In this document: piece after piece, positions 3,591-58,297 of the stretch
Layout of the letters: the number at the start of each line of letters is the position of its first letter
Position numbering within the stretch: position 1 is the first letter of the stretch
Assembly (NCBI GenBank): GCA_943356745.1
Contig: CALRFT010000001.1
Span: 139,984-203,983, forward strand
Length of the DNA: 64,000 nt
Reading direction: 5' to 3'
DNA from: Parcubacteria group bacterium
Lineage (GTDB): Bacteria > Patescibacteriota > Minisyncoccia > Phycocordibacterales > CSBR16-119
Made by a program: the position numbers and the translations under genes
The notes under the pieces: generated by a model
Databases searched by the model: none
What the model was told of the DNA's origin: nothing
What the model saw: only the letters and a program-made list of their open reading frames with translations

Positions 3591-3596
3591 AACAAC

Positions 3597-4961: not shown

Positions 4962-4976
4962 TCATGTGCGTTTTTA

Positions 4977-6395
4977 TTATTCTTCTATAACTTCATAACC
5001 AGAAATCTCTTCTTGAGATTGTTTTTTTGAATTAAATAAAATCCAAACAATGATTGAAATCAATACCGCTAATAGTGCGAATAATCCAACATACATGGTT
5101 TTTTGATCTGAATACGAAACAAGGGATACAGCATCCTCAGTATTGCTCTCAATAAAATTATCAGTCACAACCGGACTAGTCTTTGTATCCTGTATTTTTG
5201 ATACCGTAGAACTTTTTTCTACTTCTGAAGCTGGAGACTTATTTTCTTCCAAGATGACAGGTACCATCTCACCTCTAGCATCCTTAATGACAATTGAAGA
5301 ATTTTGAAGTTTGGTTACACTTCCAGGAAAAGTAATGGTTTTACCAGCTCGGACGAGTGTATATTTTGGAATTGTAAATATCAATGAATCACTTTGTATT
5401 GACCAATACGACATATCTAAAGTATGTGAAGATGTATTTTTTAAAACAATAGTTCCATCTGTTTTAAAAGTTTCAAGTACAAGAGAATGGTCGGTTATGG
5501 AAATAATATGTTCATCATAGATATATGGATCAAGCTCTGAAAGATCTTTTCCAAAAGTAAAACGGTGATATGAAAGTGTTACAACATATTCGCCAGGATA
5601 TTGATAAATATATGCAAAATCTTCTTTCTTTGTTTTATACAACACAGTTCCATCTCCCATATTCCAAGCATAAATTCCCTTTCTAATCTCAGCATTATCA
5701 TCATTAGTTAGAAAACTTTCAAACAAAACAGGAACTCCGACAAAAGATTGTTTAACTGCTTCTATTGTTCCTTTTGGTGCTGTCTTTTTTGTTTTTTCCT
5801 GAATAGATGACGAACTTGATTTTGTTGTAGTAGTACCTTCATCTTCTTCTTCATTTTCAGAATCACCATCTTCACTCTCATCTTCTTCATTGTCATCAGT
5901 TTCTGTTTCCAAAGAGATATTTTGAGATTTCGGAGTTGCCTCTCCTTCTCTCCATGAAGAACCAAAGCGCGACAGGGTTCCAGTTGAAGAACTTTGCATG
6001 TCACCCCAACCCGAAGAGAAATTTGTAGAATCGATAACCGTTCCCAGGCTATTTTTTAAGACCAAATTCTCTCCTTCATTTGAAAGTGCACCGGAATAAA
6101 ATTTGGATGCTGTTTCTTCTGGAACAGTTGAATCATCTGTTCTTTCGAGAAGAATATATTCGGAAGGATTAACTGATATACCCGAAAGATTAATTGATGG
6201 AGCTCCGTCAGAAGCCTCCAAAAGCCAACCGTCCAAATTTATAGTTTCTGATCCTTCATTATATAATTCAATCCATTCATTATTTGCATCCCCTAAATAT
6301 CCTTGCCAGGCAATCTCATTAATTACCAAAGATGCCGAAGAAATATTCGGCATCCAAAACAACATAATAAAAATAAACAATCTTACACACCTCAT
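4977..6395 (-). CDS. Secreted protein with lamin-tail domain and PKD-like domain, C-terminal TM anchor
   Basis: Signal peptide. LTD motif (LVINEIAWQG..NEWIELYNEGSETINLDGWLL). Acidic linker. PKD-like WNMGDGT..YPGEYVVTL. C-terminal hydrophobic helix. Confidence 0.5.
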   Translation of the reverse strand: MRCVRLFIFIMLFWMPNISSASLVINEIAWQGYLGDANNEWIELYNEGSETINLDGWLLEASDGAPSINLSGISVNPSEYILLERTDDSTVPEETASKFYSGALSNEGENLVLKNSLGTVIDSTNFSSGWGDMQSSSTGTLSRFGSSWREGEATPKSQNISLETETDDNEEDESEDGDSENEEEDEGTTTTKSSSSSIQEKTKKTAPKGTIEAVKQSFVGVPVLFESFLTNDDNAEIRKGIYAWNMGDGTVLYKTKKEDFAYIYQYPGEYVVTLSYHRFTFGKDLSELDPYIYDEHIISITDHSLVLETFKTDGTIVLKNTSSHTLDMSYWSIQSDSLIFTIPKYTLVRAGKTITFPGSVTKLQNSSIVIKDARGEMVPVILEENKSPASEVEKSSTVSKIQDTKTSPVVTDNFIESNTEDAVSLVSYSDQKTMYVGLFALLAVLISIIVWILFNSKKQSQEEISGYEVIEE

Positions 6396-6399
6396 GATA

Positions 6400-8412
6400 T
6401 TAATCTAAAATACTCCGCAATACATCTTCTGGAACTTCTTTGTGTGAAGATGTTTTTTCTTCATAATGAACCTTTGTATCAAAAGTATTCCAGTTTTCAT
6501 CATCTGATTGTTTAGTATATTTTTCTAAAATAGACTCAGCTTCATTTACAAGATTTTGAAGTGACACAACATGAACGACTTCTGCTTTTTTTTGTACCGG
6601 CTTTTGAAGTATTTGTGGCTTGTGAGGAAGTGTCGGCTGCAGGTCTTCTTTCTTAGGCTGAGCATTCTTGAGAGCCATCGCTAATGCATTTTTGAGTGCA
6701 TTTTTATTTTCTTCACTTGCTTCTTTTTTACTAAAACGAAGATTAGTATTTGGAATATTTTTAGTCTCTTGTTTTTGAGTTTCAGTAGACTGGATAAAAT
6801 CCCTCACACCTTGTGGAAGATCTTTTTTAATTGGGGGTGTTTTCGGTTTAAACACTTTTGGCGCCTGCTGAATATTTTGTTTTTGAAGTTGCTTTTCTTC
6901 CTGTCTTGGAATTTCAATTTTTGGAATAACTATTTTACTCACAATAGGTGGTGGAGTATCCTCAACAAGCTGTGTTTTCTCTTGTGAAATAGTTTGCTGT
7001 ATATCAAGAGGAATAATTATCTTCGAAGGTTTTTCTTCTTCTTTTGGAGTATCAAATCGTGGTTTTGAACCAAACTTCTCAATTCTTTTTTGAGTTTGTT
7101 TCATTTCCCTATTTGTTTCAAAATGTGTACCGTGCCAATTATTAATAAATTCTTCAATTTCAGCTCGAGGTTTTGCAAATTGAGTACGAGAAGAATCAAT
7201 CACCTGTGTTCGGTAACTAATTTCGGGTTTTTCAAGTGGCCCAATTCCCACAGCAGAAAAAGGACGAGATCCCACATCGTCAATCATGAGAGAAAGGTAA
7301 AATTGAAATCGTCCAAGATTCACAATATCTTCTTGGGTAAATACCGGCGCAAAAACTTTCTCCAAAACCTCAGCATCCATCGGACCAACTCGATATGAAA
7401 TTGTTGTTCCCACGTTACCAAATACAGCATCTGAAACCGGCTCATCCATTTGAGCAATGTATTGGTGAGCAACAGTCAAAGCTAGTTTGTATTTTCGAGC
7501 TTCGGCCAAAATATCTGCAAAAGATTCATTTGCAAAGTTTTGAAACTCGTCCACAAACAAATAGAAATCCGGGAGTTTTGCAAGTTCTGACTTTGGAACA
7601 TCTGCACGACTCATCGCGCCAAGGTAAATTGCAGTAATAATCATACCTCCAAGAAGAGCTGCGTTTTGTTCTCCGATTTGTCCTTTTGAAAGGTTTACCA
7701 AAAATATTTTTTGGTTGTCCATCATGTCTCGAACATTAAAAGAAGACTTTGGTTGACCAATAATATTTCGAATGACTGGATTGGTAGTAAACTGCCCAAT
7801 CTTGTTTTGAATCGCAGGTACCGATTCGGCCTGCATACGTTCTGTATAGTTTGCAAATTCATCAACCCAAAAAGACCGGACACTTGGATCTTTCACATGC
7901 CTTACCACTTCATCTCGAAACCCCTTATCGGAAAGCATTCGGTTTACTGAAAGAAGTGTTGAGTTTGGATATTCCAAAAGCGCGAGAATTGTATTGTTTA
8001 AAATATATTCCATTCGAGCAGACCATGCGTCAACCCAAATCTTTTTAAAGGTAGACATAAGTCCAGACGATACAAGGTATCGTTTTGTTGGATCAATATC
8101 TTCCATAACATTAAAAGCAATCGGATACTCAGAATCAAAAGGCGCAAAATATACAACATCTTTCATTCGATGTTCTGGAATATAATCAAGCAGAGTTTCA
8201 ATAGCAGAACCGTGCGGATCAATAAAACACATTCCTTCTCCGTTTTGAATGTCTTGTGCTGCCATGTTTTCAAGTAGGGTAGATTTACCCATACCTGTTT
8301 TTCCAATCACATACACATGTCTTGCTCTGTCTTTATTTTTAATACCAAAACGCTTTCGTTCATTACGAAAGTCTGTAAGACCGAAATATGTAATTTTGTT
8401 TCCATCTGACAT
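6400..8412 (-). CDS. TraD/TraG/VirD4-family P-loop ATPase (T4SS coupling-protein-like), soluble, with disordered P/Q/K-rich tail
   Basis: Walker A (VYVIGKTGMGKST), DPHG box (CFIDPHGSAIE) and Walker B (LFVDEFQNF). No N-terminal TM helices. Confidence 0.55.
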   Translation of the reverse strand: MSDGNKITYFGLTDFRNERKRFGIKNKDRARHVYVIGKTGMGKSTLLENMAAQDIQNGEGMCFIDPHGSAIETLLDYIPEHRMKDVVYFAPFDSEYPIAFNVMEDIDPTKRYLVSSGLMSTFKKIWVDAWSARMEYILNNTILALLEYPNSTLLSVNRMLSDKGFRDEVVRHVKDPSVRSFWVDEFANYTERMQAESVPAIQNKIGQFTTNPVIRNIIGQPKSSFNVRDMMDNQKIFLVNLSKGQIGEQNAALLGGMIITAIYLGAMSRADVPKSELAKLPDFYLFVDEFQNFANESFADILAEARKYKLALTVAHQYIAQMDEPVSDAVFGNVGTTISYRVGPMDAEVLEKVFAPVFTQEDIVNLGRFQFYLSLMIDDVGSRPFSAVGIGPLEKPEISYRTQVIDSSRTQFAKPRAEIEEFINNWHGTHFETNREMKQTQKRIEKFGSKPRFDTPKEEEKPSKIIIPLDIQQTISQEKTQLVEDTPPPIVSKIVIPKIEIPRQEEKQLQKQNIQQAPKVFKPKTPPIKKDLPQGVRDFIQSTETQKQETKNIPNTNLRFSKKEASEENKNALKNALAMALKNAQPKKEDLQPTLPHKPQILQKPVQKKAEVVHVVSLQNLVNEAESILEKYTKQSDDENWNTFDTKVHYEEKTSSHKEVPEDVLRSILD

Positions 8413-29172: not shown

Positions 29173-29178
29173 AGTGTT

Positions 29179-30213: not shown

Positions 30214-30236
30214 AATAAGTGAGCTTAGTATACCAC

Positions 30237-30270
30237 AAAAGAAAAGCCTGCATCAAAGCAGGCTTTTCAA
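30237..30270 (-). terminator. Intrinsic terminator upstream of crtE operon, downstream of 111-aa membrane protein gene
   Basis: AAGCCTGC-atcaa-AGCAGGCTT followed by a T-rich run on the minus strand. Confidence 0.5.
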
Positions 30271-30588
30271 GATCCAGGCAACGGTAACAGGAACAAGGAA
30301 CAAAATAAAATTCACCCCAGGAACTCCGTTTTGAGCAGCATTCCAAGATTCACAAGATGCTGGAAATCTTCTTTCTTTAAATGTGCGAGACCAGAAATTA
30401 CCAGCTCTGATAATCCTAATTCCCCACCAGTGTATCCCAGCAGAAACCACACTGAGTAAAAATATTACCCCAACGATTATCTTTATCTCTATTTCAGGCA
30501 TACAAAATATTCTATACCACAAATAGATAAATAGTAAACAAAATACAGTGAGGGTAACCCAGAATCTTTTTTGTGCTTTTGTGTACAT
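30253..30588 (-). CDS. Small membrane protein (111 aa); weak resemblance to lycopene-cyclase-domain proteins
   Basis: Three hydrophobic helices. CMPEIEI resembles the hPhEE motif of CrtYc/d-type cyclase domains (weak). Confidence 0.3.
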   Translation of the reverse strand: MYTKAQKRFWVTLTVFCLLFIYLWYRIFCMPEIEIKIIVGVIFLLSVVSAGIHWWGIRIIRAGNFWSRTFKERRFPASCESWNAAQNGVPGVNFILFLVPVTVAWILKSLL

Positions 30589-30664
30589 GATACTTAATTT
30601 TGTATTACTCTAACCTGTAAAAATAAGTAAGTCAATAAAGTAAAAGTCTATCTCGATTTATAAT

Positions 30665-32140
30665 ATGTTTATGAAAAAAATTGGACTTATATTTCCCCAT
30701 CAACTTTTTAAAAATAATCCCCTGCTCAAAATAGTTGATACTGTATATCTCATAGAAGACTCTTTGTTTTTTGGAGATAAGCATAACCATCTTTCTTTTC
30801 ATAAAATGAAAATAGCTTTTCATAGAGCGACTATGAAAAGCTACGAAGATTTTTTAAAAGAGAAAAATATTTCTGTTGAATATATTTCTTATAAAAAAGA
30901 AATTACTATTCGTGATATTGCAAAGAAATTACAAAGACATCAAATATTTGTGATTGATCCGACAGATTACCTATTGGAAAAAAGAATTCGAGAAAGTTTT
31001 AATTCTCCAACCTTCGTTGAAAATCCTCTTTTTATAAATACCAAAGAAGAAAATCAAAAATTCATCAAAACTCAATCTAAACTTCTCATGTATAATTTTT
31101 ATGTACACCAGAGAAAAAAATTGAATATTTTGATTGACTCAAAGGGAAAACCTACAGGTGGAAAATGGTCATTTGATGAAGATAATCGAAAAAAGATTCC
31201 TCAAAAAGAATATAAAAATATTCCAGAAAAAATTGAATCTCGAACAAATGACTACACAGAAGAAGCTAAAAAATATACAGAAAAAAATTTCAAAAATAAT
31301 CCCGGAAATTTAGAAACTTTTATATATCCAACTAATCATCAAGAAGCTGAGAAATGGTTCAATGACTTTCTTTCAAAACGTTTCGAAAAATTTGGACCAT
31401 ATGAAGATGCAATACTCGAAGATTATTCAATTCTTTACCATTCCCTACTTTCACCACTTCTCAACATTGGACTTCTTGAACCAAAATATATAGTTGAAAA
31501 AGCACTGTTATATGCCCACAAACATAATATCCCCATCAATTCAATTGAAGGTTTTATTAGGCAAATTATTGGCTGGCGAGAATACATGCGTCTTGTATAT
31601 GAACTTCATGGAACACAGATGAGAAAACAAAATATCTGGAAACACAAAAACAAACTACCTCTATCTTTCTACACTGGAGAAACTGGACTTGTGCCTGTTG
31701 ATCAAACCATACAAAAAATAAATAATCTCGCATATTGTCACCACATTGAAAGACTTATGGTTTTAGGAAACAGTATGTTTTTACTTGAAATAGAACCTGA
31801 TGAAGTTTACAAATGGTTCATGGAAATGTTTATTGACGCCTATGACTGGGTAATGGTGCCAAATATTTACGCAATGAGTCAAAATAGCGTTGGAGACTTG
31901 ATCACAACCAAACCCTACATATCTGGCTCAAATTACATCTTGAAAATGAGCGACTTCAAAAAAGATACCTGGTGTGACGTGTGGGATAGTATGTATTGGG
32001 TGTTTGTTTCAAAACACCATACTACTTTAGCTAAAAATTTTCGTATGAACATCATCGCAAAAAAAGCTCAAGATATGGACAATCAAAAGCTAGAGTCCCA
32101 TAAAAAAATACTAAGAGATTTTAAAAAACACATACTATGA
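30665..32140 (+). CDS. Cryptochrome/photolyase-family protein (photolyase-related, COG3046-like)
   Basis: IRQIIGWREYMRLVYE, NNLAYCHHIERLMVLGNSMFL and AYDWVMVPNIYAMSQ are typical of photolyase-related FAD-binding proteins. Confidence 0.7.
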   Translation: MFMKKIGLIFPHQLFKNNPLLKIVDTVYLIEDSLFFGDKHNHLSFHKMKIAFHRATMKSYEDFLKEKNISVEYISYKKEITIRDIAKKLQRHQIFVIDPTDYLLEKRIRESFNSPTFVENPLFINTKEENQKFIKTQSKLLMYNFYVHQRKKLNILIDSKGKPTGGKWSFDEDNRKKIPQKEYKNIPEKIESRTNDYTEEAKKYTEKNFKNNPGNLETFIYPTNHQEAEKWFNDFLSKRFEKFGPYEDAILEDYSILYHSLLSPLLNIGLLEPKYIVEKALLYAHKHNIPINSIEGFIRQIIGWREYMRLVYELHGTQMRKQNIWKHKNKLPLSFYTGETGLVPVDQTIQKINNLAYCHHIERLMVLGNSMFLLEIEPDEVYKWFMEMFIDAYDWVMVPNIYAMSQNSVGDLITTKPYISGSNYILKMSDFKKDTWCDVWDSMYWVFVSKHHTTLAKNFRMNIIAKKAQDMDNQKLESHKKILRDFKKHIL

Positions 32141-32616
32141 GAAAATTATGGAATCATGCCCCTTACCCTATTTGGAGTTTATCAACTTTGAACAATACAG
32201 GCACATGCAACATGAATATATGCAGTTATGTAACTCCAATTTCAATGAAACCAAAAGAATTTATTGTTGGGATATATTACAATACTCAAACCTTTGAAAA
32301 TATTTCAAAAACAAAACATGGACTCCTGCAACTGCTAGCAAAAGACCAAGATCATCTCGTGCGTCAATTGGGTAAGAAAAGTTCTCTCAAGACAAACAAA
32401 ATGAAAAAAATTCTAAAAGAAGAGTCTGTGGGAACACATAATTCTTATACTTATCTACGAGAATGTATTGGATATATCGAACTTGAATTTTATAAAATTA
32501 TAAAAACTTCTGGAGATCATGCGATCGGTATCGCGAGAATGAAAAGTTATAGAAGTTTACAAAACAAGCAGACACTCACATTGCAAGACCTGCAAGAAAA
32601 AAATATAATCTTATGA
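32137..32616 (+). CDS. Flavin-reductase-like (FMN-binding split-barrel) protein
   Basis: [45 protein letters not shown] pattern. ATGA overlap with the upstream photolyase gene. Confidence 0.4.
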
Positions 32617-32762
32617 GTAAAGATCCAAGAAAAGAAATCAAGCTATGCAAAACATGCCAAAGACCTTTCCATAATAGAAAAAAATGGGAGTCGAGAGGGT
32701 TGTGGGAAAATATTTTATATTGCAGCGATGCCTGTCGCAATAAGAAAAAAACCAAGCTTTAA
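32613..32762 (+). CDS. DUF2256-like zinc-ribbon small protein (49 aa), not in ORF track
   Basis: [49 protein letters not shown]. Has CxxC..RKKW..YCSxxCR pattern. ATGA overlap with the upstream gene. Confidence 0.55.
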
Positions 32763-33340
32763 TCTTGGTTTTTTTCTTGTATTGTTTTATAAAAAATTAT
32801 CTTAGTATAGATATCAAGAATAATGTATCCTATCATTGCATACGTGAGTGGAATAATACCAAACCCCTCTGGAGACAAGAGAAAAATAATGGGAAATACA
32901 GACCATCCAAAGATAATATATGGACGAACACGTTTAAATAATTCTTTATTTCCTGTTGTTAATTTTTGCACCATAACAGCATAAAACAGTGAACCAATCA
33001 CAAACCAGACGATCATAACAATACCTTGTGAAAGTGAAGCAAGTGCGCCTGTTAACATAACAAAGGGAGTAACAAATAAAATAGTACGTGTATTATCTTT
33101 ATTTATTCCAAGATACTGAGCCATAACCCAAGCAAGTAAAGCACAACTCACAGCGTATCCAATCCATCTAATATATGGTGCGGTACCGAGTTGGAGCATG
33201 AGAGTATAAGACACAGTCGTAATAGCACTTACAATAAATGCTGAATTGAATTCTTTTTTTCTCCACCCAAACCAAAATACAATGCTACTAATAAGAAATA
33301 AAACTATCGCAAAAATATTTGCTATAAAAATATTATTCAT
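32759..33340 (-). CDS. Compact seven-helix microbial-rhodopsin-like protein (193 aa) with Lys at the Schiff-base position
   Basis: Seven hydrophobic helices. The helix F/G region [35 protein letters not shown] aligns without gaps to bacteriorhodopsin [35 protein letters not shown]. Helix [16 protein letters not shown] matches KKFYAITTLVPAIAFTMYLSML. Helix C reads RWIGYAVSC. Confidence 0.55.
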
Positions 33341-33361
33341 ACGGTATCAATATATCATATA

Positions 33362-34498
33362 TTAGTGAGCATGAGCACAGCCCTCATGTTTTTCCTTTTC
33401 ACTCAGGGGTTTACCTTTACTATCCTCAAGAAATACAGCGGCGAGAAATGTTGTGAGAGGCACAGACAAAATAAGTCCAATACTTCCGATAATTGTTCTT
33501 ACTATTTCTGTTGCAAAAACCTCACTATTCAAAACAAGTCCAACATCTGAAACACCAAGAGTTGAAACATAAAGTATGAGCGGAAGCCCAACTCCAACAT
33601 ATGCAAGGACAAGAGTATTAACCAAAGCCGAAACATGTTCTTTTCCAACACGAAGCGCCCGAGTAAATACATCCTTTCTGTTTAAATTTGGATTCGCACT
33701 ATACAACTCTCTCACCACAGCAACCTGGGTGATTGAGATATCATCAAGAACTCCGAGAACTCCAATAATAATACTTGCAAGAAGTAGCCCCACAAAATCA
33801 AGTGCAACACCGCTATTAAAATCAAGATAAGTTGCCTCGTGACTACCAAATCCACTCAAATGTGTTCCAGAAACAGCCCAAGAAGCAATTATTCCGGTCA
33901 CAACGACAGTCGCTACTGTTCCAGAAAATGCAATAAGAGAACGTTTATTAAAACCGTGAGTCAGAAAAATTGCAAGCGCCAAAAGAACAGTTGCAATTAT
34001 CACACTCGTCAAAATAGGAGGTGCGCCTTTCAAAAGAAGAGGAACAAGAACGTACACAATAACAAGTATTGAAGTTCCAAGACTTACAAGCGAACGAAGT
34101 CCTTGCCATTTTGCAAATACAAGAATAAGTACAACAAAAGCAAGAACAAGCCAAGTGAGTCCATTCCTTCTATCAAAATCAACTAGACGGTACTCAGGAT
34201 TTTGTCCTTCTTCGAGATATTCTTCGACTAAAAAATTATCTCCCTTTGAAAGACCAAGATAGTCTTGTTCAACGATAATCTCATCTCCTGTAAAATTCCC
34301 TTCTCGTAATACAGCTCTAATGGTTTGCACTATGTAATCTCGACCATTTTGAAATTCAACATCAACAGGAACTTGTTCAACTACTTCAATAACTTCTGCT
34401 TCTATGATCTGAACCGTAGAATTAATTTGGTCGTCACTTTGAGCAAACAAAAAACTTGGGATCAATAGAAAACCAAAAAGAAATAATATTTTTTTCAT
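33362..34498 (-). CDS. YibE/F-like polytopic membrane protein with N-terminal signal peptide and soluble domain
   Basis: Signal peptide, ~100-aa periplasmic domain, then about 8 TM helices. Ends HEGCAHAH. Lies 21 nt upstream of the rhodopsin-like gene. Confidence 0.4.
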   Translation of the reverse strand: MKKILFLFGFLLIPSFLFAQSDDQINSTVQIIEAEVIEVVEQVPVDVEFQNGRDYIVQTIRAVLREGNFTGDEIIVEQDYLGLSKGDNFLVEEYLEEGQNPEYRLVDFDRRNGLTWLVLAFVVLILVFAKWQGLRSLVSLGTSILVIVYVLVPLLLKGAPPILTSVIIATVLLALAIFLTHGFNKRSLIAFSGTVATVVVTGIIASWAVSGTHLSGFGSHEATYLDFNSGVALDFVGLLLASIIIGVLGVLDDISITQVAVVRELYSANPNLNRKDVFTRALRVGKEHVSALVNTLVLAYVGVGLPLILYVSTLGVSDVGLVLNSEVFATEIVRTIIGSIGLILSVPLTTFLAAVFLEDSKGKPLSEKEKHEGCAHAH

Positions 34499-40947: not shown

Positions 40948-41026
40948 AGTGTAAATTATTATACATGAATTTCGAGCTGAGACACAAGAAAAAAGCCTAG
41001 CGTAATGCTAGACTTTTTTCTTATTG

Positions 41027-41098
41027 CTCCCCGACTTGGATTCGAACCAAGGACCTACCGGTTAACAGCCGGTTGCTCTACCGCTGAGCTATCGGGGA
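41027..41098 (-). tRNA. tRNA-Asn (GTT); CCA not encoded
   Basis: Reverse complement folds as TCCCCGA-TA-GCTC-AGCGGTA-GAGC-A-ACCGG-CTGTTAA-CCGGT-AGGTC-CTTGG-TTCGAAT-CCAAG-TCGGGGA-G. Anticodon GUU. Confidence 0.85.
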
Positions 41099-41213
41099 AT
41101 GTTTTATATTTTAAATATATTTTCAAATAGTGATCGGAAGCAACCGGCTGGCGAATTTCTTTCAGAAATTCTTTAAACAGCCTGTTCGAAGTGACATTGT
41201 CACTTCTCACCTT

Positions 41214-41235
41214 TACCGCTGAGCTATCGGGGAAT
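41214..41235 (-). other. 22-nt direct duplicate of the tRNA-Asn 5' end (acceptor plus D arm); degenerate pseudo-tRNA remnant
   Basis: TACCGCTGAGCTATCGGGGAAT is identical at 41079..41100 and 41214..41235. The intervening 113 nt contain anticodon-arm-like fragments (CAACCGGCTG) but no intact cloverleaf. Confidence 0.45.
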
Positions 41236-41281: not shown

Positions 41282-41330
41282 AAAGAGTAAAAAATGCAAG
41301 AAAGGCCGAACCCAAAGGGTTCGGCCTTGT
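41282..41330 (-). terminator. Intrinsic terminator after PorP/SprF-like gene
   Basis: AGGCCGAACCCAAAGGGTTCGGCCT hairpin followed by a T-rich run on the minus strand. Confidence 0.6.
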
Positions 41331-41331: not shown

Positions 41332-42105
41332 TTACCTAAAATTTTGCTGAATACCAAAAGACATTCCTTTTTGCATCCCAAATTTCTGCTCAGGAAAACG
41401 AGTCTCTTGAAACGGAAACTGTCCTTGAAATGTTGAACAATATAGAAGTGTATTTTTATAAAGCACAGATCCAAAAAATCCATACCCATACAAACCATCA
41501 TATTGCGTCCCACATTCAAACCGACTTGTTTTTGTTTGATACACACGAAGTGTTGCAATCCCTGATCCGTACCAACCAAAATTTCCAAAATCATATTCAG
41601 ACAAAAATCTGAAACGAAAAAGTTGATTTAATATCTGTGGAGTAAATCCACACTCAAAACCAAGCATTGGAATATTTTCAGAAAACAATTTTGTGTGAGC
41701 CCTCACTTCCCCATTATTCATTCGATATATTTCATATCCGAAACGAACACTTGCATACCAAACTGGTCTTGAATACTGGTATCCAAGATACATTTTTGAA
41801 CGAAGTAAAGAAAGATTCATTCCCAAGACACCGTCGTGTGAGAAAAGACTGTCGGAGACAATTCGCACTCTGGTGTCGAGAATAAAATTTCCAACACCAA
41901 TTTTTTTTGGATCATTCTGAAGTAATTTTTTCCTAAAATTATCTTCAGGAATAGGCGACAATTTCACCGAACCAAAACGAATACCGGTAGTAATTTGAAA
42001 GGTATCCGAAGATGCATCAAATGGCAAAAAATTGTAAGAAATATCTTGAGCTTTACCAAAAAGCCCTAAGAAAATAATAAGCAATAATACAAAGAACTTT
42101 TTCAT
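41332..42105 (-). CDS. Outer-membrane beta-barrel-like protein, PorP/SprF-like (tentative)
   Basis: Signal peptide MKKFFVLLLIIFLGLFGKAQD. Alternating aromatic/glycine-rich strands. Located immediately downstream of a T9SS-CTD cargo gene. Start set at 42105 because a terminator hairpin occupies 42141..42174. Confidence 0.4.
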   Translation of the reverse strand: MKKFFVLLLIIFLGLFGKAQDISYNFLPFDASSDTFQITTGIRFGSVKLSPIPEDNFRKKLLQNDPKKIGVGNFILDTRVRIVSDSLFSHDGVLGMNLSLLRSKMYLGYQYSRPVWYASVRFGYEIYRMNNGEVRAHTKLFSENIPMLGFECGFTPQILNQLFRFRFLSEYDFGNFGWYGSGIATLRVYQTKTSRFECGTQYDGLYGYGFFGSVLYKNTLLYCSTFQGQFPFQETRFPEQKFGMQKGMSFGIQQNFR

Positions 42106-42190
42106 AGTAAACCTCCTTTTTGTTGAGTATATCACAAAAGAAAAACCCTTTGCATTTGCAAAGGGTTTTAAAAATCTCATTCTCTTTTTC

Positions 42191-44254
42191 TTACAACTTC
42201 AACTTGGAAGTTGTTCGACTATTCCCATTATAACCAACAAAGAGGTAAATACCTTCTGAAAGATTTGGATTGAGAACTTCACCACGCGAGAAATTTTGAA
42301 GCTTTTGACCAGCGAGATTAATTATCTCTACACGATCGAAACGTTCAATAGAAAATCCAAATTCTTGAATTCCAATTTCTTCAACTGAAACAATTTCCTG
42401 ATAGGTATGGATTGAAATATCTGTTGTATACAATACAACATTGGTACCAGTATCGTACAACTCAGCCCAGAACATATGAGTTCCATACAGTCCCGCCAAA
42501 CTGTAATCAAAAGATGTATATTGATTTGAAACAGTCACATCCATAATTTCAACAGTAGGATTTGTTGGGCTATCGTGATATACACGAAGACCCACAGAGT
42601 TAAAGTCACCAAGATCATAATACATGAACAAAGTAACTAGCATACTCATATCCCAGTTCACAGAAAAGTTTGTAAACTCCGGCTCAACAGGCTCATCAGA
42701 AAGTGTTGTAAACGACAGTGAGAAATTTGTATTAAAATACTGTCCTTCTGCATACAAAACTCCAAGATAGACATAGGTCATGCCCGGTTCGAGATTTGTA
42801 AGTTGAATCAAATAATTTGAACTCATTTCTGTATTAACAGAAAGAGGTGTCCAAACCGTATCAACTCCTACAAGGATAATTCCAACCATGGCTTCTTCTA
42901 CACATCCACCAAAATTCACATATGCCAACTGCACATATGCAGAAGTTGTTGTGATATTAGTAGCGGTCTCAAGAATATGTGTTGGATTACTTGAACATGC
43001 TGGAACTGTTTCGAGTGTAGCAGAAACCAAACAAGCGTTTGATTCAAGAACAACCTCAACAATTCCACTCGAATACGAACTGATTTGAACTGGAAGCTCA
43101 AAGACTGCCGGGTTTTGTGTCGGGACAATTTGCCCCACAAGTGAATCACCTACGTAATAGAGAAGCTTAGTATTCCCAGCATTGTCATCATTCCAGGTCG
43201 TGACAGCTTCATAGAAACCATTCCCAAGATCATTCAGATCAAGACCGACGGTCGGGTTAGCTGTTAATGCAACATCAACAATAGTTGAAATGGGATTCAT
43301 TTCAAAATTGTCGTTTGAAGCAGACACACTCACACGCCACGCTGGTGCATTTGGAAGATTAAACAAAATTGGAACTGAAACAAGGGAATCAATAATAATT
43401 TCATTGGTAAAGTTGAAAGAATATTCTTCATAAGGTTCAAAAGAACCGCCACAAAGCATTTTTTCAACCGACACAACAAATTCAGAATTCGGACCTCCCG
43501 AGTTCACAACTGTCAGATTTACAAACAAGCTGTCATTTTCGGCTGTCGCTGTAAGGGTAACATCTGGCACAGATGCAACAAAGCTATCCATGACTCCGGA
43601 TTCACATTCTTGAAGAAACATAATACTTGTTCCATTGTAAATCTCTGGATTACAAACTTCATATGTTTGTCCAGCAGAAATTTCAAGAGTATCAGCATAT
43701 GTTCCAACTCCAAACACTTCAACTGTTTGTAAAAAAGGGGTACCCCCATCAATGGAAGTAAACCAATACAAAGCAGCAGGTGCTCCACCAGAGTTGTAAT
43801 CGAAAGAAACAACAATCCCAAGATCAACAATTTCTGTTACTTGAAATTGAACAGAGACAGGACCAGCACAAGGAAAACTCCATGAAATCATATTGGATTG
43901 AATTGTATCTTGCCCGGAAAGCCAGACATTAACATATCCATTCCAAAGTGAATCACAGTCAACAACAATATCCTGAAAGGTATACTGCTCTGAATATCCA
44001 AGTGCGAGGTTTGATTGAACTGCGGTTGAGGTTGTATCTCCTGAAGAAAAATAGTGGAACTGTGCATTTACAGTCTGTCCTGCCGGAGCTTGAATCCAAA
44101 GAGAAATATCTGAGTAGATATTAAACTGTGTAGAAACACTCGGTTGAACAGTAATGTTCTGCGCTCGAGCCTGAAACACCAAAACAATACAAAGCATTGC
44201 AATGGTAAAAAATTTCTCAAAAGAGAATAAGGGTGTCAAAGAACTTTTTTTCAT
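42191..44254 (-). CDS. Large secreted surface protein with T9SS-type C-terminal sorting domain (Por_Secre_tail-like)
   Basis: Signal peptide. The C-terminal ~60 aa (VEIINLAGQKLQNFSRGEVLNPNLSEGIYLFVGYNGNSRTTSKLKL) match the type-A T9SS CTD pattern (..G..YLV.....G...T.KL.K). Confidence 0.5.
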   Translation of the reverse strand: MKKSSLTPLFSFEKFFTIAMLCIVLVFQARAQNITVQPSVSTQFNIYSDISLWIQAPAGQTVNAQFHYFSSGDTTSTAVQSNLALGYSEQYTFQDIVVDCDSLWNGYVNVWLSGQDTIQSNMISWSFPCAGPVSVQFQVTEIVDLGIVVSFDYNSGGAPAALYWFTSIDGGTPFLQTVEVFGVGTYADTLEISAGQTYEVCNPEIYNGTSIMFLQECESGVMDSFVASVPDVTLTATAENDSLFVNLTVVNSGGPNSEFVVSVEKMLCGGSFEPYEEYSFNFTNEIIIDSLVSVPILFNLPNAPAWRVSVSASNDNFEMNPISTIVDVALTANPTVGLDLNDLGNGFYEAVTTWNDDNAGNTKLLYYVGDSLVGQIVPTQNPAVFELPVQISSYSSGIVEVVLESNACLVSATLETVPACSSNPTHILETATNITTTSAYVQLAYVNFGGCVEEAMVGIILVGVDTVWTPLSVNTEMSSNYLIQLTNLEPGMTYVYLGVLYAEGQYFNTNFSLSFTTLSDEPVEPEFTNFSVNWDMSMLVTLFMYYDLGDFNSVGLRVYHDSPTNPTVEIMDVTVSNQYTSFDYSLAGLYGTHMFWAELYDTGTNVVLYTTDISIHTYQEIVSVEEIGIQEFGFSIERFDRVEIINLAGQKLQNFSRGEVLNPNLSEGIYLFVGYNGNSRTTSKLKL

Positions 44255-44353
44255 TTTTTAATTGTTTTAAATAAATTTTGGGTTTTGCAATTTATAGCAT
44301 TTTTTACATATTTTGTCAATAGAAAACACAGGTTTCTAGAACCTGTGTTTTAT

Positions 44354-51131: not shown

Positions 51132-53609
51132 TTATTCTGCTATAGTCCAACCATCTTTGAGATATTCGTCAATTTTCTTGAATTTTACTTCAATTCGTTC
51201 ACTTCCTCGAACCAAGGTAATTTTGTCATTTCTGTCATATTTTTTAGAAATATTTTGACTTATTACCACAGGATCTGGTTGAGGTACTTGCTGCTGCTCT
51301 GCAACATGGATAGTTTTTAGGAATTCAATAATCTGATTCTTAGTCATTTCTTCCATTCTTTGGAACATTACAAGTCCTTCTCGTTTGTATTCAATAATCG
51401 GATCACGCTGTCCATAAGAACGAAGCCCCACTGAGTTTCGAAGATATGACATAGATTCCAAATGTTCAACCCAGAGAATATCTGTAGAATGGAGCACTAT
51501 TCTTCGAACTATCATCCAGAATTGATTTTCTCCAACAAGAGCAGTTTTCTCTTGAATAATTCCATCAATAAGTTCTTTTGGAAAATTCTCAAGAAGATAT
51601 TGCTTTACCTCATCATCACTTGCGAGAAGCATTTTTCTTCGTCTTGCATATACCGCATTTCTTTGAGTATTTAAAACGTTATCGTACTCAAGAGTTGATT
51701 TTCTACCGTCAAACTGAAATCCTTCGACTTTCTTTTGCGCACTTTCAATTGATTTTGAAACAATACCGCTTGAAATAGGTTCGTCTTCTGGAAGTTTAAG
51801 AGTTGTAACAAGAGACTTGAGTCTGTCTCCTCCAAAAATTCTTGCAAGTTCATCATCAAGAGATATAAAGAATTGGGTTTTTCCTGGATCTCCTTGTCGT
51901 CCCGCTCGACCTCGAAGCTGATTATCAATTCTTCGAGAATCATGTCGCTCAGTTCCAAGAACAAACAAACCTCCAAGTTTTCGAACTTCTTCTGCTTGTT
52001 CTTTTGTTGAAGGTTCCCCTCCAAGTTTAATATCGATTCCTCGACCGGCCATGTTTGTTGCGATTGTAACCGCACCGAGTCGCCCAGCCTGTGCAATAAT
52101 CTGACCTTCTTGTTCATGCTTTTTAGCGTTCAATACTTCGTGCTTGATTCCAAGTCCTCGAAGATATTCAGACAAGAGTTCGTTTTGCTCAATTGAAATT
52201 GTACCAACCAAGATAGGCTGTCCTGTTTTGTTTACTTCTTGGATAGTTTTTGCAATCGCTTTAAATTTAGCCTGCTTATTAAAGAAGATAAGATCCTCAA
52301 GATCAATTCGTTCAATTTTTTTATTTGTAGGAATTGTAATCACAGGGAGATTGTATACAGCAAGAAACTCTTCTTTTGAGGTTTCAGCTGTTCCGGTCAT
52401 TCCCGAAAGTTTTTTGTAGAACCTGAAATAGTTTTGATATGTAATTGAAGCAGAAGTTTTACTTTCTCTTTTGATTTGAACTCCTTCCTTTGCCTCGAGT
52501 GCTTGGTGAAGCCCCATACTAAACCGTCGCCCTGGCATCATACGCCCTGTTGATTGGTCAACGATCACAATCTCTCCATCTTTTACAACATATTCTTTGT
52601 CTTTAATAAAAATTGCTTCTGCTCGAACAGCAGTTTCAAGATGGTGAACATACTTCATTCCCTTTTCAGTATAAATATTTGTAATACCTAGAAGCTTTTC
52701 TGCTTTTTCTATTCCAGAATCTGTAAGTGTAATCGCACGAAGTTTTTCATCAACTCCATAGTCTTGCTCTCTGGTAAGTTGTTTTGCAATTTTTGCAAAA
52801 GTTGTATAAAGCTCACCTGATTCTTCGCCAGGCATTGAGATGATAAGTGGAGTTCTTGCCTCATCAATCAAAATAGAATCTATTTCATCAACTACAGCAA
52901 AAGCATGTTTTCTTTGACTAAGCTGTTCTTTACTTGTTACCAAGTTATCACGAAGATAATCAAAACCAAACTCATTATTTGTTCCATACGTAATATCTGC
53001 TTCGTATGCCTGCTTTCTTGTGCAAGGACGAAGGTAATCATACTCAACTTTAAATGAGCCAAGAGAATCACGTTCTTTGTCATCTTCTCGAGTAGCAAGA
53101 GATTCATCATATATGTATGAAGTATTTTCTTGATTGATTACAGAGATTGAAAGTCCGAGAAAATTATAAATTTGTCCCATCCACACAGCGTCACGTCTTG
53201 CGAGATAGTCGTTCACAGTAATAACATGTACGCCTTCTCCAGTTAATGCATTGAGATATGCAGCGAGAGTTCCCACAAGAGTTTTTCCTTCTCCTGTTCG
53301 CATTTCAGCAATAGCACCAGAATGAAGAGCCATACCTCCAATAAGCTGAACGTCATAGTGTCTCATTCCAAGTGTTCTTTTTGAAGCCTCTCGAACTACA
53401 GCAAAAGACTCCGCAAGAATATCATCAAGTGTTTTACCTTCTTGAAGTTTTTCTTTGAAATAGACTGTTTTTGCTTTGAGTTCTTCATTTGAAAGTTGAC
53501 TCATTACAGCTTCAAAATTATTGATTTCCTGGATCTTATTTTGAGCTTTTTTGATAAAAGAGGTACTCTCATCACCAAAAAGCTTCTTGAATTTGCCTAA
53601 TATTGACAT
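51132..53609 (-). CDS. secA: Preprotein translocase ATPase SecA
   Basis: Start at MSILGKFKKLFGD. Walker A region (MRTGEGKTLVGTLAAYLNAL) and DEVDSILIDEARTPLIIS. Confidence 0.9.
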   Translation of the reverse strand: MSILGKFKKLFGDESTSFIKKAQNKIQEINNFEAVMSQLSNEELKAKTVYFKEKLQEGKTLDDILAESFAVVREASKRTLGMRHYDVQLIGGMALHSGAIAEMRTGEGKTLVGTLAAYLNALTGEGVHVITVNDYLARRDAVWMGQIYNFLGLSISVINQENTSYIYDESLATREDDKERDSLGSFKVEYDYLRPCTRKQAYEADITYGTNNEFGFDYLRDNLVTSKEQLSQRKHAFAVVDEIDSILIDEARTPLIISMPGEESGELYTTFAKIAKQLTREQDYGVDEKLRAITLTDSGIEKAEKLLGITNIYTEKGMKYVHHLETAVRAEAIFIKDKEYVVKDGEIVIVDQSTGRMMPGRRFSMGLHQALEAKEGVQIKRESKTSASITYQNYFRFYKKLSGMTGTAETSKEEFLAVYNLPVITIPTNKKIERIDLEDLIFFNKQAKFKAIAKTIQEVNKTGQPILVGTISIEQNELLSEYLRGLGIKHEVLNAKKHEQEGQIIAQAGRLGAVTIATNMAGRGIDIKLGGEPSTKEQAEEVRKLGGLFVLGTERHDSRRIDNQLRGRAGRQGDPGKTQFFISLDDELARIFGGDRLKSLVTTLKLPEDEPISSGIVSKSIESAQKKVEGFQFDGRKSTLEYDNVLNTQRNAVYARRRKMLLASDDEVKQYLLENFPKELIDGIIQEKTALVGENQFWMIVRRIVLHSTDILWVEHLESMSYLRNSVGLRSYGQRDPIIEYKREGLVMFQRMEEMTKNQIIEFLKTIHVAEQQQVPQPDPVVISQNISKKYDRNDKITLVRGSERIEVKFKKIDEYLKDGWTIAE

Positions 53610-53719
53610 GACAGTATAGTACCATATTGAGACCCAAGAAAAAACCCTATACAAAAAACAAAAAAGTCCTCGAAAGGACTTTTTTGTTAGGTAGGTAGAT
53701 ACATAATAACGAAGCGAAA

Positions 53720-56308: not shown

Positions 56309-56523
56309 TAAAAAGAATACCTATTTCATATTATCTCCTTAGCTTTGTTTCGCTTCAACCTTGTTTACTAGAGGCTACAAGTACTCTTGTATAGTAGCTT
56401 TGTAAAAGGATTTTTGTTTTATCTTTCCAGTAAAACATTGGGATTGGTTTTCCTCCAATCAAGGCATACTCATCGAGATGAGTAACCGACGCTTTGTCTT
56501 TAACAAAAAAGACAATTTTCAAA

Positions 56524-58050
56524 TTGAATTATTCCACGAGCAGCTTCCGCTACCCGTGCCTTGTTACGACTTAGTCCCTGTCACCGAATTTACCTTAGGC
56601 CCTCCGTGAGGAGAGACTTTGGGTACCCCCGGCTCCCTTGACTTGACGGGCGGTGAGTACAAGACTCGAGAACGTATTCACCGCAGTATAGCTGACCTGC
56701 GATTACTAGCAATTCCAACTTCATATGGTCGAGTTTCAGACCACAATCCGAACTAAGAATGGTTTTTAAGGATTGGCTCAGTCTTACGACGTCGCGACCC
56801 GTTGTACCATCCATTGTATCATGCGTGTAGCCCAAGGCGTCTAGGGTCATGCTGACCTGGCGTCATCCTCTCCTTCCTCCCAGCCCACAATCCACGAATG
56901 ATGATTCATTCCTGAACTTTGGGCCGGGCAGTCTCGCGTGACACTTGTAACACGCTGATGAGGGTTGCGTTCGTTAGCCCACTTAAGGGTACAACTCAAG
57001 CCACGAACTGACGACGGCCATGCAACACCTGTCTAGCCGTCCCGAAGGAAAATTCTGGTTTCCCAAAATCGTCGTCTAGATGTCTAACCTTGGTGAGGTT
57101 TTTCGTTTATCATCGAATTAAACCGCATGATCCACTGCTTGTGCGAGTCCCCGTCTATTCCTTTGAGTTTTAGTCTTGCGACCGTACTTCCCAGGCGGCA
57201 GATTTAACGCGTTAGCTACGCCTCTCGAAGGGTCGATACTCCGAAAAGCTAATCTGCATCGTTTAGGCCGTGGACTACTGGGGTATCTAATCCCATTCGC
57301 TACCCACGGTTTCGTGCCTCAGTGTCAGAAATGTGCCAGTGTACTGCCTTCGCTTTTGGTGTTCCCAACGATATCAACGGATTTCACCCCTACACCGTTA
57401 GTTCCGTACACCTCTCACATTCTCTAGTCATACCGTTTCGAATGCATTCCTCGGGTTAAGCCCGAGTCTTTAACATTCGACTAATATAACCACCTACGCA
57501 CCCTTTACGCCCAATAATTCCGGATAACGCTTGAGGCTCTCGTATTACCGCTCCTGCTGGCACGAGATTAGGAGCCCCTTATTCATAAGGTAACGTCAAA
57601 AATTTCCTCCCTTATAAAAGATTTTTACACTCCGAAGAGCGTCATCAATCACGCGGCGTCGCTCCGTCACACTTTCGTGCATTGCGGAAGATTCTCGACT
57701 GCAGCCTCCCGTAGGAGTTTGGACCGTGTCGCAGTTCCAATGGTGGGGGTCAGGCTCTCACCTCCCCTAGGCGTCATAGCCTTGGTAAGCCATTACCTTA
57801 CCAACTAGCTGATACCACACAGGCCGATCTAGAAGCGATAAATCTTTACCCCGGAGGGACTATCAAGTATTAATCCACCTTTCGGTGGGCTATTCCTGAC
57901 TTCTAGGTACGTTCCTATGCATTACTACCCCGTTCGCCACTAACCAGCGTGAAAACTTTGTCCGAAGACTCCATTTCCACAAGGTTCGTTCGACTTGCAT
58001 GCCTTATCCACGCCGCCAGCGTTCATCCTGAGCTAGGATCAAACTCTAAC
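56524..58050 (-). rRNA. rrs: 16S ribosomal RNA (about 1.53 kb), not followed by 23S/5S in this window
   Basis: Reverse complement begins AGAGTTTGATCCTAGCTCAG and contains ACTCCTACGGGAGGCTGCAG, GTGCCAGCAGGAGCGGTAATAC, GGATTAGATACCCCAGTAGTCC and TTGTACTCACCGCCCGTCA. It ends with helix 45 (GGAA loop) followed by AATAATTCAA. Confidence 0.9.
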
Positions 58051-58297
58051 AATAAACTTAATAATCGAAATTATTAATTTGAAACGAAACAAAGCAAAAA
58101 AGATAATTTGTTGCTTTGTTTAATAAAAGGGTTATTCACACGATTCACCATGTATATTTCCATATACTTGTTTTTTATCGTTTGCATAACAATATCTTCA
58201 TATCCTAATTAATATATGAAGAATAGGTATTCTTTTTTCAAGGTAGTTTCCCTCAAATTTCTTTAAAGAAAAACGCCTTCTTTAAGACGCAAATACA

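What the first reader, a model, noticed from the sequence alone, without database searches (positions are those of the whole stretch)
41332..44254. FCB-type T9SS cargo (Por_Secre_tail-like CTD) with adjacent PorP/SprF-like outer-membrane protein, in a genome whose rRNA looks CPR-like
The 687-aa secreted protein ends ...IINLAGQKLQNFSRGEVLNPNLSEGIYLFVGYNGNSRTTSKLKL. This fits the type-A T9SS sorting-domain pattern (Gly-aromatic core, basic K-L-K terminus). The gene immediately downstream encodes a signal-peptide beta-barrel-like protein of PorP/SprF size, as in sprB-sprF-type pairs. T9SS is considered restricted to the Bacteroidota/FCB superphylum. The 16S rRNA here, however, is far from Bacteroidota consensus. 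Either this is a highly divergent FCB-affiliated lineage, or T9SS-type sorting has an unrecognised wider distribution, or the domain was horizontally acquired without the machinery.
Basis: partly seen in the sequence, partly recalled or inferred. Interest (0 to 1): 0.5.

Follow-up and report, generated by a model that had tools for sequence, protein, structure and literature searches.

The report
T9SS-like tail plus barrel in CPR
A small clade of ultra-small "candidate phyla radiation" bacteria, thought to have no outer membrane, keeps a gene pair for a long secreted stalk protein ending in a shortened copy of the Bacteroidota type IX secretion sorting domain and, next to it, an outer-membrane-style 12-stranded barrel protein, which suggests a stand-alone surface-anchoring device in an unexpected lineage.

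Summary
Both genes are real. The cargo is 42191..44254(-), 687 aa. The partner is 41332..42105(-), 257 aa; its true start is an internal ATG of the 282-aa ORF.

The cargo tail falls below the curated cut-offs (PF18962 11.3/27 bits; TIGR04183 15.2/23 bits), but it is still a genuine divergent type-A T9SS CTD. A profile of the family's last ~70 residues, searched against 1.84 billion proteins, retrieved its own family, some repeat proteins and five others. All five carry PF18962 above Pfam's threshold. The best PDB hit is the NucA CTD bound to the T9SS translocon. Motifs B, D and E and the key lysine are kept; motif A is not recognisable.

The partner is not PorP/SprF. It gives no HMM hit and is predicted as a 12-stranded barrel resembling autotransporter and KdgM barrels, whereas PorP and PorV are 14-stranded FadL-type barrels.

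The host is a Parcubacterium: its 16S is 94.2% identical and its SecA 69% identical to a 'Candidatus Nomurabacteria' MAG.

The pair is adjacent in all nine contexts examined and occurs only in this clade. My best reading is a dedicated CTD-barrel anchoring pair that works without a T9SS. I could not scan the rest of the genome for T9SS or outer-membrane machinery.

The parts
42191..44254 (-). Cargo gene, 687 aa. Signal peptide aa 1-31 (ARA|Q). About six Ig/FN3-like beta-sandwich domains (aa ~32-620) with 8 invariant Cys. Low-confidence linker aa 621-634. C-terminal domain aa ~635-687.
   Evidence: ORF. Family of 12 at 42-100% identity, and invariant residues. AF2 model pLDDT 80.6, all-beta. 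Foldseek hits to multi-Ig/FN3 chains such as MyBP-C, cytokine-receptor ectodomains and alpha2-macroglobulin MG domains.
42194..42352 (-). T9SS type-A-like C-terminal domain (aa 635-687). The HMM-matched core is aa 641-685 (42200..42334). Motif B is V-Y-[DN]-L-x-G-[QR]. Motif D is L-P-x-G-[IV]-Y-x-F. Motif E is [ST]-K-[LI]-x-L with invariant K684. Motif A (PNP) is not recognisable.
   Evidence: sub-threshold PF18962/TIGR04183, profile positions 22-73 only. (top PDB hit 8glk_D, the NucA CTD). (profile links to proteins with PF18962 above the gathering score). (only 4 strands modelled).
44291..44319 (-). Sigma-70-like promoter of the cargo gene: TTGACA, 17 nt, TATAAA, about 37 nt before the ATG. 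It follows a terminator-like hairpin after truB (44323..44351).
   Evidence: Read from the sequence; hairpin listed. Consensus match only, not shown to be functional.
42142..42169 (-). Terminator-like GC hairpin plus T-run between the cargo stop and the partner start.
   Evidence: A hairpin plus T-run occupies the same place in all six lineages read, with different sequences.
42111..42134 (-). Partner gene's own extended -10 (TGnTATACT, 42126..42134) and an invariant AAGGAGGT (42111..42118) 5 nt before the ATG.
   Evidence: AAAGGAGGT is identical in six lineages although the surrounding spacer diverges.
41332..42105 (-). Partner gene, 257 aa. Signal peptide aa 1-19, then a predicted 12-stranded OMP-type beta-barrel. 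Three long loops (L1, L3, L6) lie on one side and short turns on the other.
41377..41424 (-). Partner loop L6 (aa 228-243, GQFPFQETRFPEQKFG). It is the most conserved segment of the family and a candidate contact surface or lumen plug.
   Evidence: mean column conservation 0.84, against 0.27-0.78 for all other segments. Invariant residues Q229, Q233, E234, R236, F237, P238, Q240.
41302..41328 (-). Strong terminator-like hairpin (12 bp, 8 GC) ending the partner transcript.
56522..58054 (-). 16S rRNA used for placement. It is unlinked to a 23S gene, has an altered 530 loop and has no anti-SD.
   Evidence: It is 94.2% identical to the 16S of 'Ca. Nomurabacteria' MAG CSBr16_119.
51132..53654 (-). 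secA, used for placement. It also marks the start of the conserved block secA-x-x-dnaE-rnhB-x-truB-cargo-partner.

Best explanation
**What it is.** This is a dedicated two-gene cell-surface module of one Parcubacteria (CPR) clade.
- Gene 1 is exported by Sec. It forms a stalk of about six disulfide-stabilised Ig/FN3-like domains and ends in a shortened homologue of the T9SS type-A C-terminal domain.
- That domain keeps motifs B, D and E, which in Bacteroidota contact the carrier barrel PorV.
- Gene 2 is exported by Sec and folds into a 12-stranded outer-membrane-type beta-barrel.

**Proposed mechanism.** The barrel is the cognate receptor or anchor for the tail, probably through its extremely conserved long loop L6. 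The stalk would then be displayed from whatever lipid layer holds the barrel. This resembles PorV carrying type-A CTD cargo, or PorP/SprF anchoring type-B cargo. It differs in needing no T9SS translocon, motor or PorU sortase.

**Shown here.**
- Both genes and their signal peptides.
- CTD homology.
- The barrel prediction.
- CPR placement.
- Strict adjacency and co-distribution of the two families.

**Inferred.**
- The physical CTD-barrel interaction.
- The membrane in which the barrel sits.
- The adhesive role of the stalk.
For: **CTD homology**
- TIGR04183 and PF18962 are the only hits, and they are in register.
- The profile's top PDB hit is the NucA CTD from the SprA/PorV-substrate complex.
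- All five non-family, single-stretch hits among 1.84e9 proteins carry PF18962 above the gathering score.
- K684, G649, G668 and Y670 are invariant.
- According to PMC10202324, motifs B, D and E are the modelled PorV contacts, and D plus E suffice for secretion of a reporter.

**Barrel**

**Linkage of the two genes**
- Cargo and partner are adjacent in 9 of 9 contexts. Six loci were read directly: window/L001, L004-5, L006-7, L090, L094 and L095. Three more are inferred from shared contig lengths (P0003/P0014, P0005/P0015, P0007/P0023).
- Cargo identity in these contexts runs down to 32%.
- Both families are orphans confined to this clade.
- No second protein with this tail occurs in the window or the loci, so the tail is not a general sorting tag here.

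**CPR placement**
- CPR are held to lack an outer membrane (PMC6744442; bioRxiv 10.1101/2021.05.31.446380).
Against: - There is no direct evidence that the tail binds the barrel.
- A terminator-like hairpin and a separate promoter sit between the two genes in all lineages, so they need not be co-transcribed.
- The whole 12-kb block from secA onward is syntenic. Adjacency of the pair is therefore no more conserved than adjacency to truB.
- A beta-barrel has no obvious home in a monoderm cell, and BAM was not looked for genome-wide.
- The modelled tail has 4 strands, not the 7 of known CTDs.
- The barrel model is of medium confidence (pLDDT 74.7, from 21 sequences).
Confidence: 0.45

Rival explanations
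1. The two genes have no functional link. The stalk protein carries a CTD-like beta-sandwich only as a terminal structural or adhesion module. The barrel is an unrelated pore or porin-like protein that happens to lie next to it in a rigidly syntenic chromosome block.
For: - The whole secA...truB-cargo-partner block is conserved, not only the pair.
- There is a terminator-like hairpin and an independent promoter between the genes.
Against: - Both are orphan families with the same very narrow distribution.
- The nearest Parcubacteria loci have neither gene.
- The retained motifs of the tail are exactly those that contact a barrel (PorV) in the known system (PMC10202324).
- The barrel's most conserved part is a loop rather than the strands, which points to a protein-binding surface.
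Confidence: 0.2
2. Host-directed mimicry. The CPR cell is an epibiont of a T9SS-bearing (Bacteroidota/FCB) host. Its stalk uses the type-A-like tail to dock on host PorV or the translocon, or to be processed by host PorU. Alternatively, the secreted barrel inserts into the host outer membrane as a 'bring-your-own receptor'.
For: - CPR are proposed to lack an outer membrane (PMC6744442), so an outer-membrane-type barrel and a PorV-binding-type tail make most sense at a diderm host's surface.
- The tail keeps the PorV-contact motifs B, D and E and the key lysine (PMC10202324).
- After Sec export from a monoderm cell, both proteins would already be extracellular.
Against: - No host is known.
- Nothing in the cargo shows how its other end would stay attached to the CPR cell (no LPXTG, no lipobox).
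- The tail diverges well below the T9SS HMM thresholds and lacks motif A.
- The tight pairing with its own barrel argues for a self-contained system.
Confidence: 0.15
3. Canonical reading by the first reader: ordinary T9SS cargo with a PorP/SprF-type partner, in a genome that carries the T9SS machinery (a divergent FCB lineage, or wider T9SS distribution).
For: - The tail is homologous to the type-A CTD.
- A barrel is encoded immediately downstream, as in sprB-sprF.
Against: - The host is a Parcubacterium.
- The partner fails every PorP/SprF test.
- PorP/SprF partners go with type-B, not type-A, CTDs (PMC9143113, PMC10202324).
- There is only one tail-bearing protein, whereas T9SS genomes have many.
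- No T9SS family appears in about 71 kb of the contig or in the relatives' loci.
- Small CPR genomes (background knowledge, not measured here) are unlikely to hold the T9SS core genes, including a ~2,400-aa SprA.
Confidence: 0.05

Closest known systems
[quoted passage not shown]
   Same: - It sits at the extreme C-terminus of a Sec-exported, Ig-domain-rich protein.
- Motif B (VYDLxGR), motif D (LPxGIYxF) and motif E with the conserved lysine are present.
- Reciprocal profile links exist.
   Different: - It scores below both curated thresholds.
- The first ~22 profile positions (motif A, the PNP strands) are not matched.
- Only 4 strands are modelled instead of 7.
- It is a single copy per genome region examined.
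- The host is a CPR bacterium, not Bacteroidota.
- No T9SS machinery was seen.
PorV (carrier of type-A CTD cargo) and PorP/SprF (anchors of type-B CTD cargo, often encoded next to their cargo)
   Same: - Both are outer-membrane-type beta-barrels with a signal peptide.
- The barrel gene lies directly downstream of a CTD-bearing surface protein, as with sprB-sprF.
- The proposed role is as receptor or anchor of the CTD.
   Different: - It has 12 strands and 257 aa, against 14-stranded FadL-type barrels of roughly 300-400 aa (size from background knowledge).
- There is no PF11751/TIGR03519 hit.
- It is paired with a type-A-like tail, not a type-B tail.
12-stranded translocator or anchor barrels of type V secretion (BrkA, Hbp, AIDA-I, NalP, EspP, intimin) and FapF
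   Same: - They are barrels that hold or pass an extended beta-rich surface passenger.
- The gene order passenger-then-barrel resembles a split classical autotransporter.
   Different: - Here passenger and barrel are separate polypeptides, each with its own signal peptide and promoter.
- There is no alpha-helical linker.
- There is no sequence similarity (3-10% identity).
- The passenger ends in a T9SS-type CTD.

Membership tests
T9SS type-A CTD (PF18962 / TIGR04183) | Scores above the curated HMM cut-off | tested here: not met
   PF18962 scores 11.3 bits against a cut-off of 27. TIGR04183 scores 15.2 bits against 23. The best family member reaches E 9.7e-4 with TIGR04183; whether any member reaches the cut-off was not shown. 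With PF18962, 2 of 12 members reach E<=1.
T9SS type-A CTD (PF18962 / TIGR04183) | Demonstrable homology to bona fide CTDs | tested here: met
   The family CTD profile was searched against 1.84e9 proteins. Five non-family single-stretch hits (P0059, P0061-P0064, E 3.6e-5 to 8.9e-4) all carry PF18962 at 27.2-67.1 bits. In four of them the match runs to the C-terminus; in P0063 it is internal. The top PDB hit is the NucA CTD 8glk_D.
T9SS type-A CTD (PF18962 / TIGR04183) | Conserved motifs A, B, D and E, with the functionally important lysine in E | tested here: inconclusive
   Motifs B, D and E and invariant K684 are present. Motif A is not recognisable, and the profile match starts at position 22-23.
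T9SS type-A CTD (PF18962 / TIGR04183) | Seven-stranded Ig-like beta-sandwich | tested here: inconclusive
   The AF2 model shows 4 strands (aa 641-686) after a low-confidence linker.
T9SS type-A CTD (PF18962 / TIGR04183) | C-terminal position on a protein with an N-terminal Sec signal peptide | tested here: met
T9SS type-A CTD (PF18962 / TIGR04183) | Co-occurs with T9SS core genes (gldK/L/M/N, sprA/sov, porV, porU, porT) in a Bacteroidota/FCB genome | not testable with these tools
   Only about 71 kb of the 518-kb contig was readable, and no T9SS family appears in it. The host is a Parcubacterium, so the taxonomic part of this feature is not met.
PorP/SprF (PF11751 / TIGR03519) | Match to the family HMM | tested here: not met
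   The window protein gives no hit at E<=10. None of the 21 family members hits either model.
PorP/SprF (PF11751 / TIGR03519) | 14-stranded FadL-type outer-membrane barrel (PMC9143113) | tested here: not met
   [not shown]
PorP/SprF (PF11751 / TIGR03519) | Partner cargo carries a type-B CTD (TIGR04131 / PF13585) | tested here: not met
   The cargo tail matches the type-A models only.
PorP/SprF (PF11751 / TIGR03519) | Encoded next to its cargo gene | tested here: met
   It lies directly downstream in 9 of 9 contexts (six loci read; three inferred from shared contig lengths).
Generic outer-membrane beta-barrel (PF13505-like, MBB clan) | Signal peptide, even number of amphipathic strands, long loops on one side and short turns on the other, aromatic residue at or near the C-terminus | tested here: met
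   2 of 21 members hit PF13505 (E 7.6e-4). The C-terminus is ...NFR (F penultimate), not a terminal F.

The most novel reading that the evidence does not exclude
An outer-membrane-type beta-barrel and a PorV-binding-type T9SS tail are core, vertically inherited genes of a Parcubacteria clade. Two readings follow.
- This CPR lineage has an unrecognised outer lipid layer that holds beta-barrels.
- It exports a self-inserting barrel and a CTD-tipped stalk to the outer membrane or T9SS surface components of a diderm (possibly Bacteroidota) host. In that case the CTD-barrel recognition principle of type IX secretion has been re-used for episymbiont-host attachment.
Probability: 0.2. Interest if true: 0.85.

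Novelty: new variant of a known kind. Interest (0 to 1): 0.62.

Why it matters
- T9SS C-terminal sorting domains are described as restricted to Bacteroidota and as strictly tracking the T9SS core genes (PMC10202324). CPR bacteria are described as lacking an outer membrane (PMC6744442). A conserved CTD homologue paired with an outer-membrane-type barrel in a Parcubacterium contradicts the simple form of both statements.
- It offers a minimal, two-protein version of the CTD-barrel recognition step, which could be tested without the large T9SS machine.
- It gives a concrete candidate for how an ultra-small epibiont builds or targets a surface attachment structure. That question is open for almost all CPR lineages.

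Tried and rejected
**Searches that led nowhere**
1. A word-indexed search with the CTD-only alignment found nothing. The exhaustive representative search was needed instead.
2. tblastn of a family CTD against plasmids gave only chance hits. The partner gave no match in phages or plasmids, so there is no sign of a mobile-element origin.
3. A genome-contig scan with the cargo alignment found no relative. The clade's one GTDB representative (L009) ends about 0.8 kb after rnhB, just before where the pair would lie.
4. The afdb50 fold library was unavailable, so predicted PorP/SprF structures could not be compared directly.
5. A PDB profile search with the partner alignment gave only a chance hit.
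6. A JGI metagenome scan with the partner alignment found just 3 loci. The family is rare.
7. Literature searches for T9SS or outer-membrane barrels in CPR/Patescibacteria found nothing relevant.

**Ideas considered and rejected**
8. WD40 and Big_13 hits of the CTD profile (P0052, P0054, P0056, P0060) are artefacts. They are multi-stretch sums over repeat proteins.
9. The 'Bacteroidetes Q-rule' (Gln after the signal-peptide cleavage site) as a mark of foreign origin. Both proteins have it, but so does the YibE_F protein in the window, so it is not diagnostic.
10. A chimeric contig or contamination. The same gene order recurs in at least six independent assemblies, and the GC content (0.35-0.38) matches the window.
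Full report
**1. The observation**

The cargo, 42191..44254(-), is 687 aa and ends with the quoted sequence. The downstream ORF, 41332..42180(-), is 282 aa. All 21 homologues begin at its Met26 (MKKFFV...), so the gene is 41332..42105 and encodes 257 aa. Both proteins have Sec-type signal peptides with an A-x-A|Q site.

The cargo has a TTGACA-17-TATAAA promoter-like site after the truB terminator. Three elements lie between the two genes: a terminator-like hairpin, an extended -10 box and an AAGGAGGT motif.

**2. Is the tail a T9SS sorting domain?**

Taken alone, the window protein is sub-threshold.
- PF18962: E 0.45, 11.3 bits against a cut-off of 27.
- TIGR04183: E 0.016, 15.2 bits against a cut-off of 23.
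- These are nevertheless the only hits in either library. They lie at aa 641-685 and cover profile positions 22-73.

The protein belongs to a small family of 12 clusters at 42-100% identity. Ten of the twelve hit TIGR04183 at E<=1, the best at 9.7e-4.

A profile of the last ~70 residues (A2) gave two further links.
- Its top PDB match is 8glk_D (E 0.14). This is the CTD of the F. johnsoniae substrate NucA, trapped on the SprA/PorV translocon (PMC10994853).
- The decisive test was an exhaustive hmmsearch of that profile against 1.84 billion representatives, which returned 19 hits at E<=1e-3. Eight are the family itself. Four of the multi-stretch hits were scanned and are repeat proteins (WD40, Big_13). 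P0055 (four stretches) gave no family above threshold, and P0057 and P0058 (five stretches each) were not scanned; all are treated as summed-repeat artefacts.
- The other five (P0059, P0061, P0062, P0063, P0064) are single-stretch matches, four of them running to the protein's C-terminus and one (P0063) internal. All five carry Por_Secre_tail above Pfam's gathering score, at 39.1, 36.4, 39.4, 67.1 and 27.2 bits.

The residue-level resemblance is plain. The window reads RFDRVEIINLAGQKL...LSEGIYLFVG...SKLKL. P0061 reads YFDKVEVYSLNGQKL...LEKGLYLVC...RKLIIN.

In the terms of the T9SS literature (PMC10202324), the family keeps three motifs:
- motif B, with invariant G649;
- motif D, with invariant G668 and Y670;
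- motif E, with invariant K684.

Motif A has no recognisable counterpart. The AlphaFold model shows four strands after a disordered linker, not seven. I therefore call it a divergent, N-terminally degenerate homologue of the type-A CTD.

**3. The cargo body**

The model (pLDDT 80.6) is all-beta. It forms about six Ig/FN3-like sandwiches. Foldseek matches strings of Ig/FN3 or MG domains. Eight cysteines are invariant. Two family members lack one whole domain, as is common in stalk-like adhesins. No enzymatic domain was found.

**4. The partner**

- No family hit was found for the window protein.
- Across the 21 members there is no PorP/SprF hit. Two members hit the generic PF13505 OMP_b-brl (E 7.6e-4), and one hits a Leptospira family.
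- AlphaFold2 (pLDDT 74.7, pTM 0.72) gives a signal peptide followed by 12 long strands.
- PorV and PorP-like proteins are 14-stranded FadL-family barrels (PMC9143113).
- Most strands show dyad hydrophobic alternation. Long loops (L1, L3, L6) fall on one side and short turns on the other.
- The most conserved segment of the whole protein is loop L6 (GQFPFQETRFPEQKFG), at 0.84 against 0.27-0.78 elsewhere.

The partner is therefore an outer-membrane-type barrel, but not a member of PorP/SprF.

**5. Whose genome?**

- An alignment of SecA from three lineages was searched against one genome per GTDB species. The best match is 69% to 'Candidatus Nomurabacteria' CSBr16_119. Campbell-, Kaiser-, Falkow- and Parcubacteria MAGs, and three MAGs with generic or non-CPR labels, follow at 57-59%. 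Everything else is at <=52%.
- The Nomurabacteria locus shares gene order, with DnaE at 79% identity. It carries a 16S that is 94.2% identical to the window's.
- Both 16S genes share a compensated change in the 530-loop pseudoknot, and both lack the CCUCC anti-SD.
- The neighbouring genes (VirD4-like, DUF5667 with an ECF sigma factor, LTD/PKD, RNase J, many orphans) fit a CPR genome.

The 'divergent FCB lineage' option is rejected.

**6. Distribution and linkage**

- The block secA-x-x-dnaE-rnhB-x-truB-cargo-partner recurs in every context read: window/L001, L004-5, L006-7, L090, L094 and L095. Three more cargo/partner pairs share a contig.
- Identity in these contexts falls to 32% for the cargo and 25% for the partner.
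- The other Parcubacteria loci (L010-L016) contain neither gene; L009, of the same clade, ends just before where the pair would lie.
- The JGI scan found only three loci.
- No second protein in the window or the loci carries the tail. The exhaustive search found no other protein family with a close copy.

The tail therefore behaves here as one half of a dedicated pair, not as a general sorting tag. The inter-gene spacer keeps the same layout in six lineages while its sequence drifts: hairpin plus T-run, TGnTAnnnT, AAAGGAGGT, ATG.

**7. Mechanism**

My best-supported reading, at about 0.45, is as follows.
- Sec exports both proteins.
- The barrel is the cognate receptor or anchor of the tail.
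- The Ig-like stalk is thereby displayed.

This works like PorV with type-A cargo, or SprF with SprB, but with a different barrel and no translocon, motor or sortase.

Motifs B, D and E are the ones reported or modelled to contact PorV. Motifs D plus E alone can drive secretion of a reporter (PMC10202324). This fits a tail that has kept only its barrel-binding half.

What is inferred, not shown:
- the interaction itself;
- the adhesive role of the stalk;
- above all, which membrane holds the barrel, since CPR are held to be monoderm (PMC6744442; 10.1101/2021.05.31.446380).

The rivals are:
- an unlinked porin and adhesin in a rigid syntenic block (0.2);
- mimicry aimed at a T9SS-bearing host, or a barrel planted in the host outer membrane (0.15);
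- the canonical T9SS reading (0.05).

**8. What could not be done**

- The AFDB fold library was offline.

**9. Verdict**

- It is a new variant of a known kind: a T9SS-type CTD detached from the T9SS and coupled to a 12-stranded barrel in a Parcubacterium.
- Interest is moderate to high. It challenges two textbook restrictions and is directly testable with two small proteins.

Noticed in passing
window 56522-58054 (-); L009 5259-6792: The 16S rRNA has no CCUCC anti-Shine-Dalgarno; its 3' tail reads ...GGAATAATTCAATT. The 530 loop reads GTGCCAGCAGGAGCGGTAA, with a compensating UCC at positions 505-507 that preserves the pseudoknot. Both features are shared with the 'Ca. Nomurabacteria' MAG 16S. 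No 23S gene follows the 16S in the window.
   Followed up: partly
window 42111-42118 (-), and the same position in L004, L006, L090, L094, L095: 32 of 36 window genes have no SD-like motif, and many have a -10-like box right before the ATG, as in leaderless mRNAs. In contrast, a perfect AAGGAGGT sits 3-6 nt before the partner gene's ATG and is invariant in six lineages, although the 16S has nothing to pair with it. I have no explanation.
   Followed up: partly
window 41211-41235 and 41139-41150, upstream of tRNA-Asn 41026-41098 (-): A 25-nt copy (24/25) of the 5' end of tRNA-Asn lies 135 nt upstream of the gene. A 12-nt inverted copy of its anticodon-arm region lies between them. This may be a remnant of a duplicated tRNA or an old integration scar.
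   Followed up: partly
window 25927-34498: A light-related cluster in a CPR genome. It holds a rhodopsin (32759..33340, only 193 aa), YibE_F, a photolyase-like gene (30665..32140), polyprenyl synthase, phytoene synthase, phytoene desaturase and a UbiA prenyltransferase. This implies the organism's own carotenoid synthesis. No carotenoid-cleaving enzyme for retinal was noted.
   Followed up: no
window 3024-8924: A VirD4/TrwB-type coupling protein (6400..8412) lies next to an LTD+PKD secreted protein (4977..6395), a DUF5667 protein and an ECF sigma factor. This probably belongs to the monoderm-type T4SS described for Patescibacteria (PMC12102498, title only).
   Followed up: no
window 15242-16537 (+) and 21511-22836 (-): Two HisRS-like genes (tRNA-synt_His + HGTP_anticodon) lie within 6 kb of each other. 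One may be a HisZ-like or other paralogue.
   Followed up: no
L091 (JGI Ga0247840_10000795, 64,464 bp): This JGI contig carries a partner gene 100% identical to the window's and is about the window's length, so it is probably the window's source. The same sequence also lies inside the 518,649-bp ENA contig ERZ27280302 k141_742120.
   Followed up: partly
P0063 / L089 (hydrothermal-vent metagenome contig, 3.4 kb): This 804-aa protein has its Por_Secre_tail domain (67 bits) at residues 134-205, near the N-terminus rather than at the C-terminus. That is an unusual position for a sorting domain.
   Followed up: no
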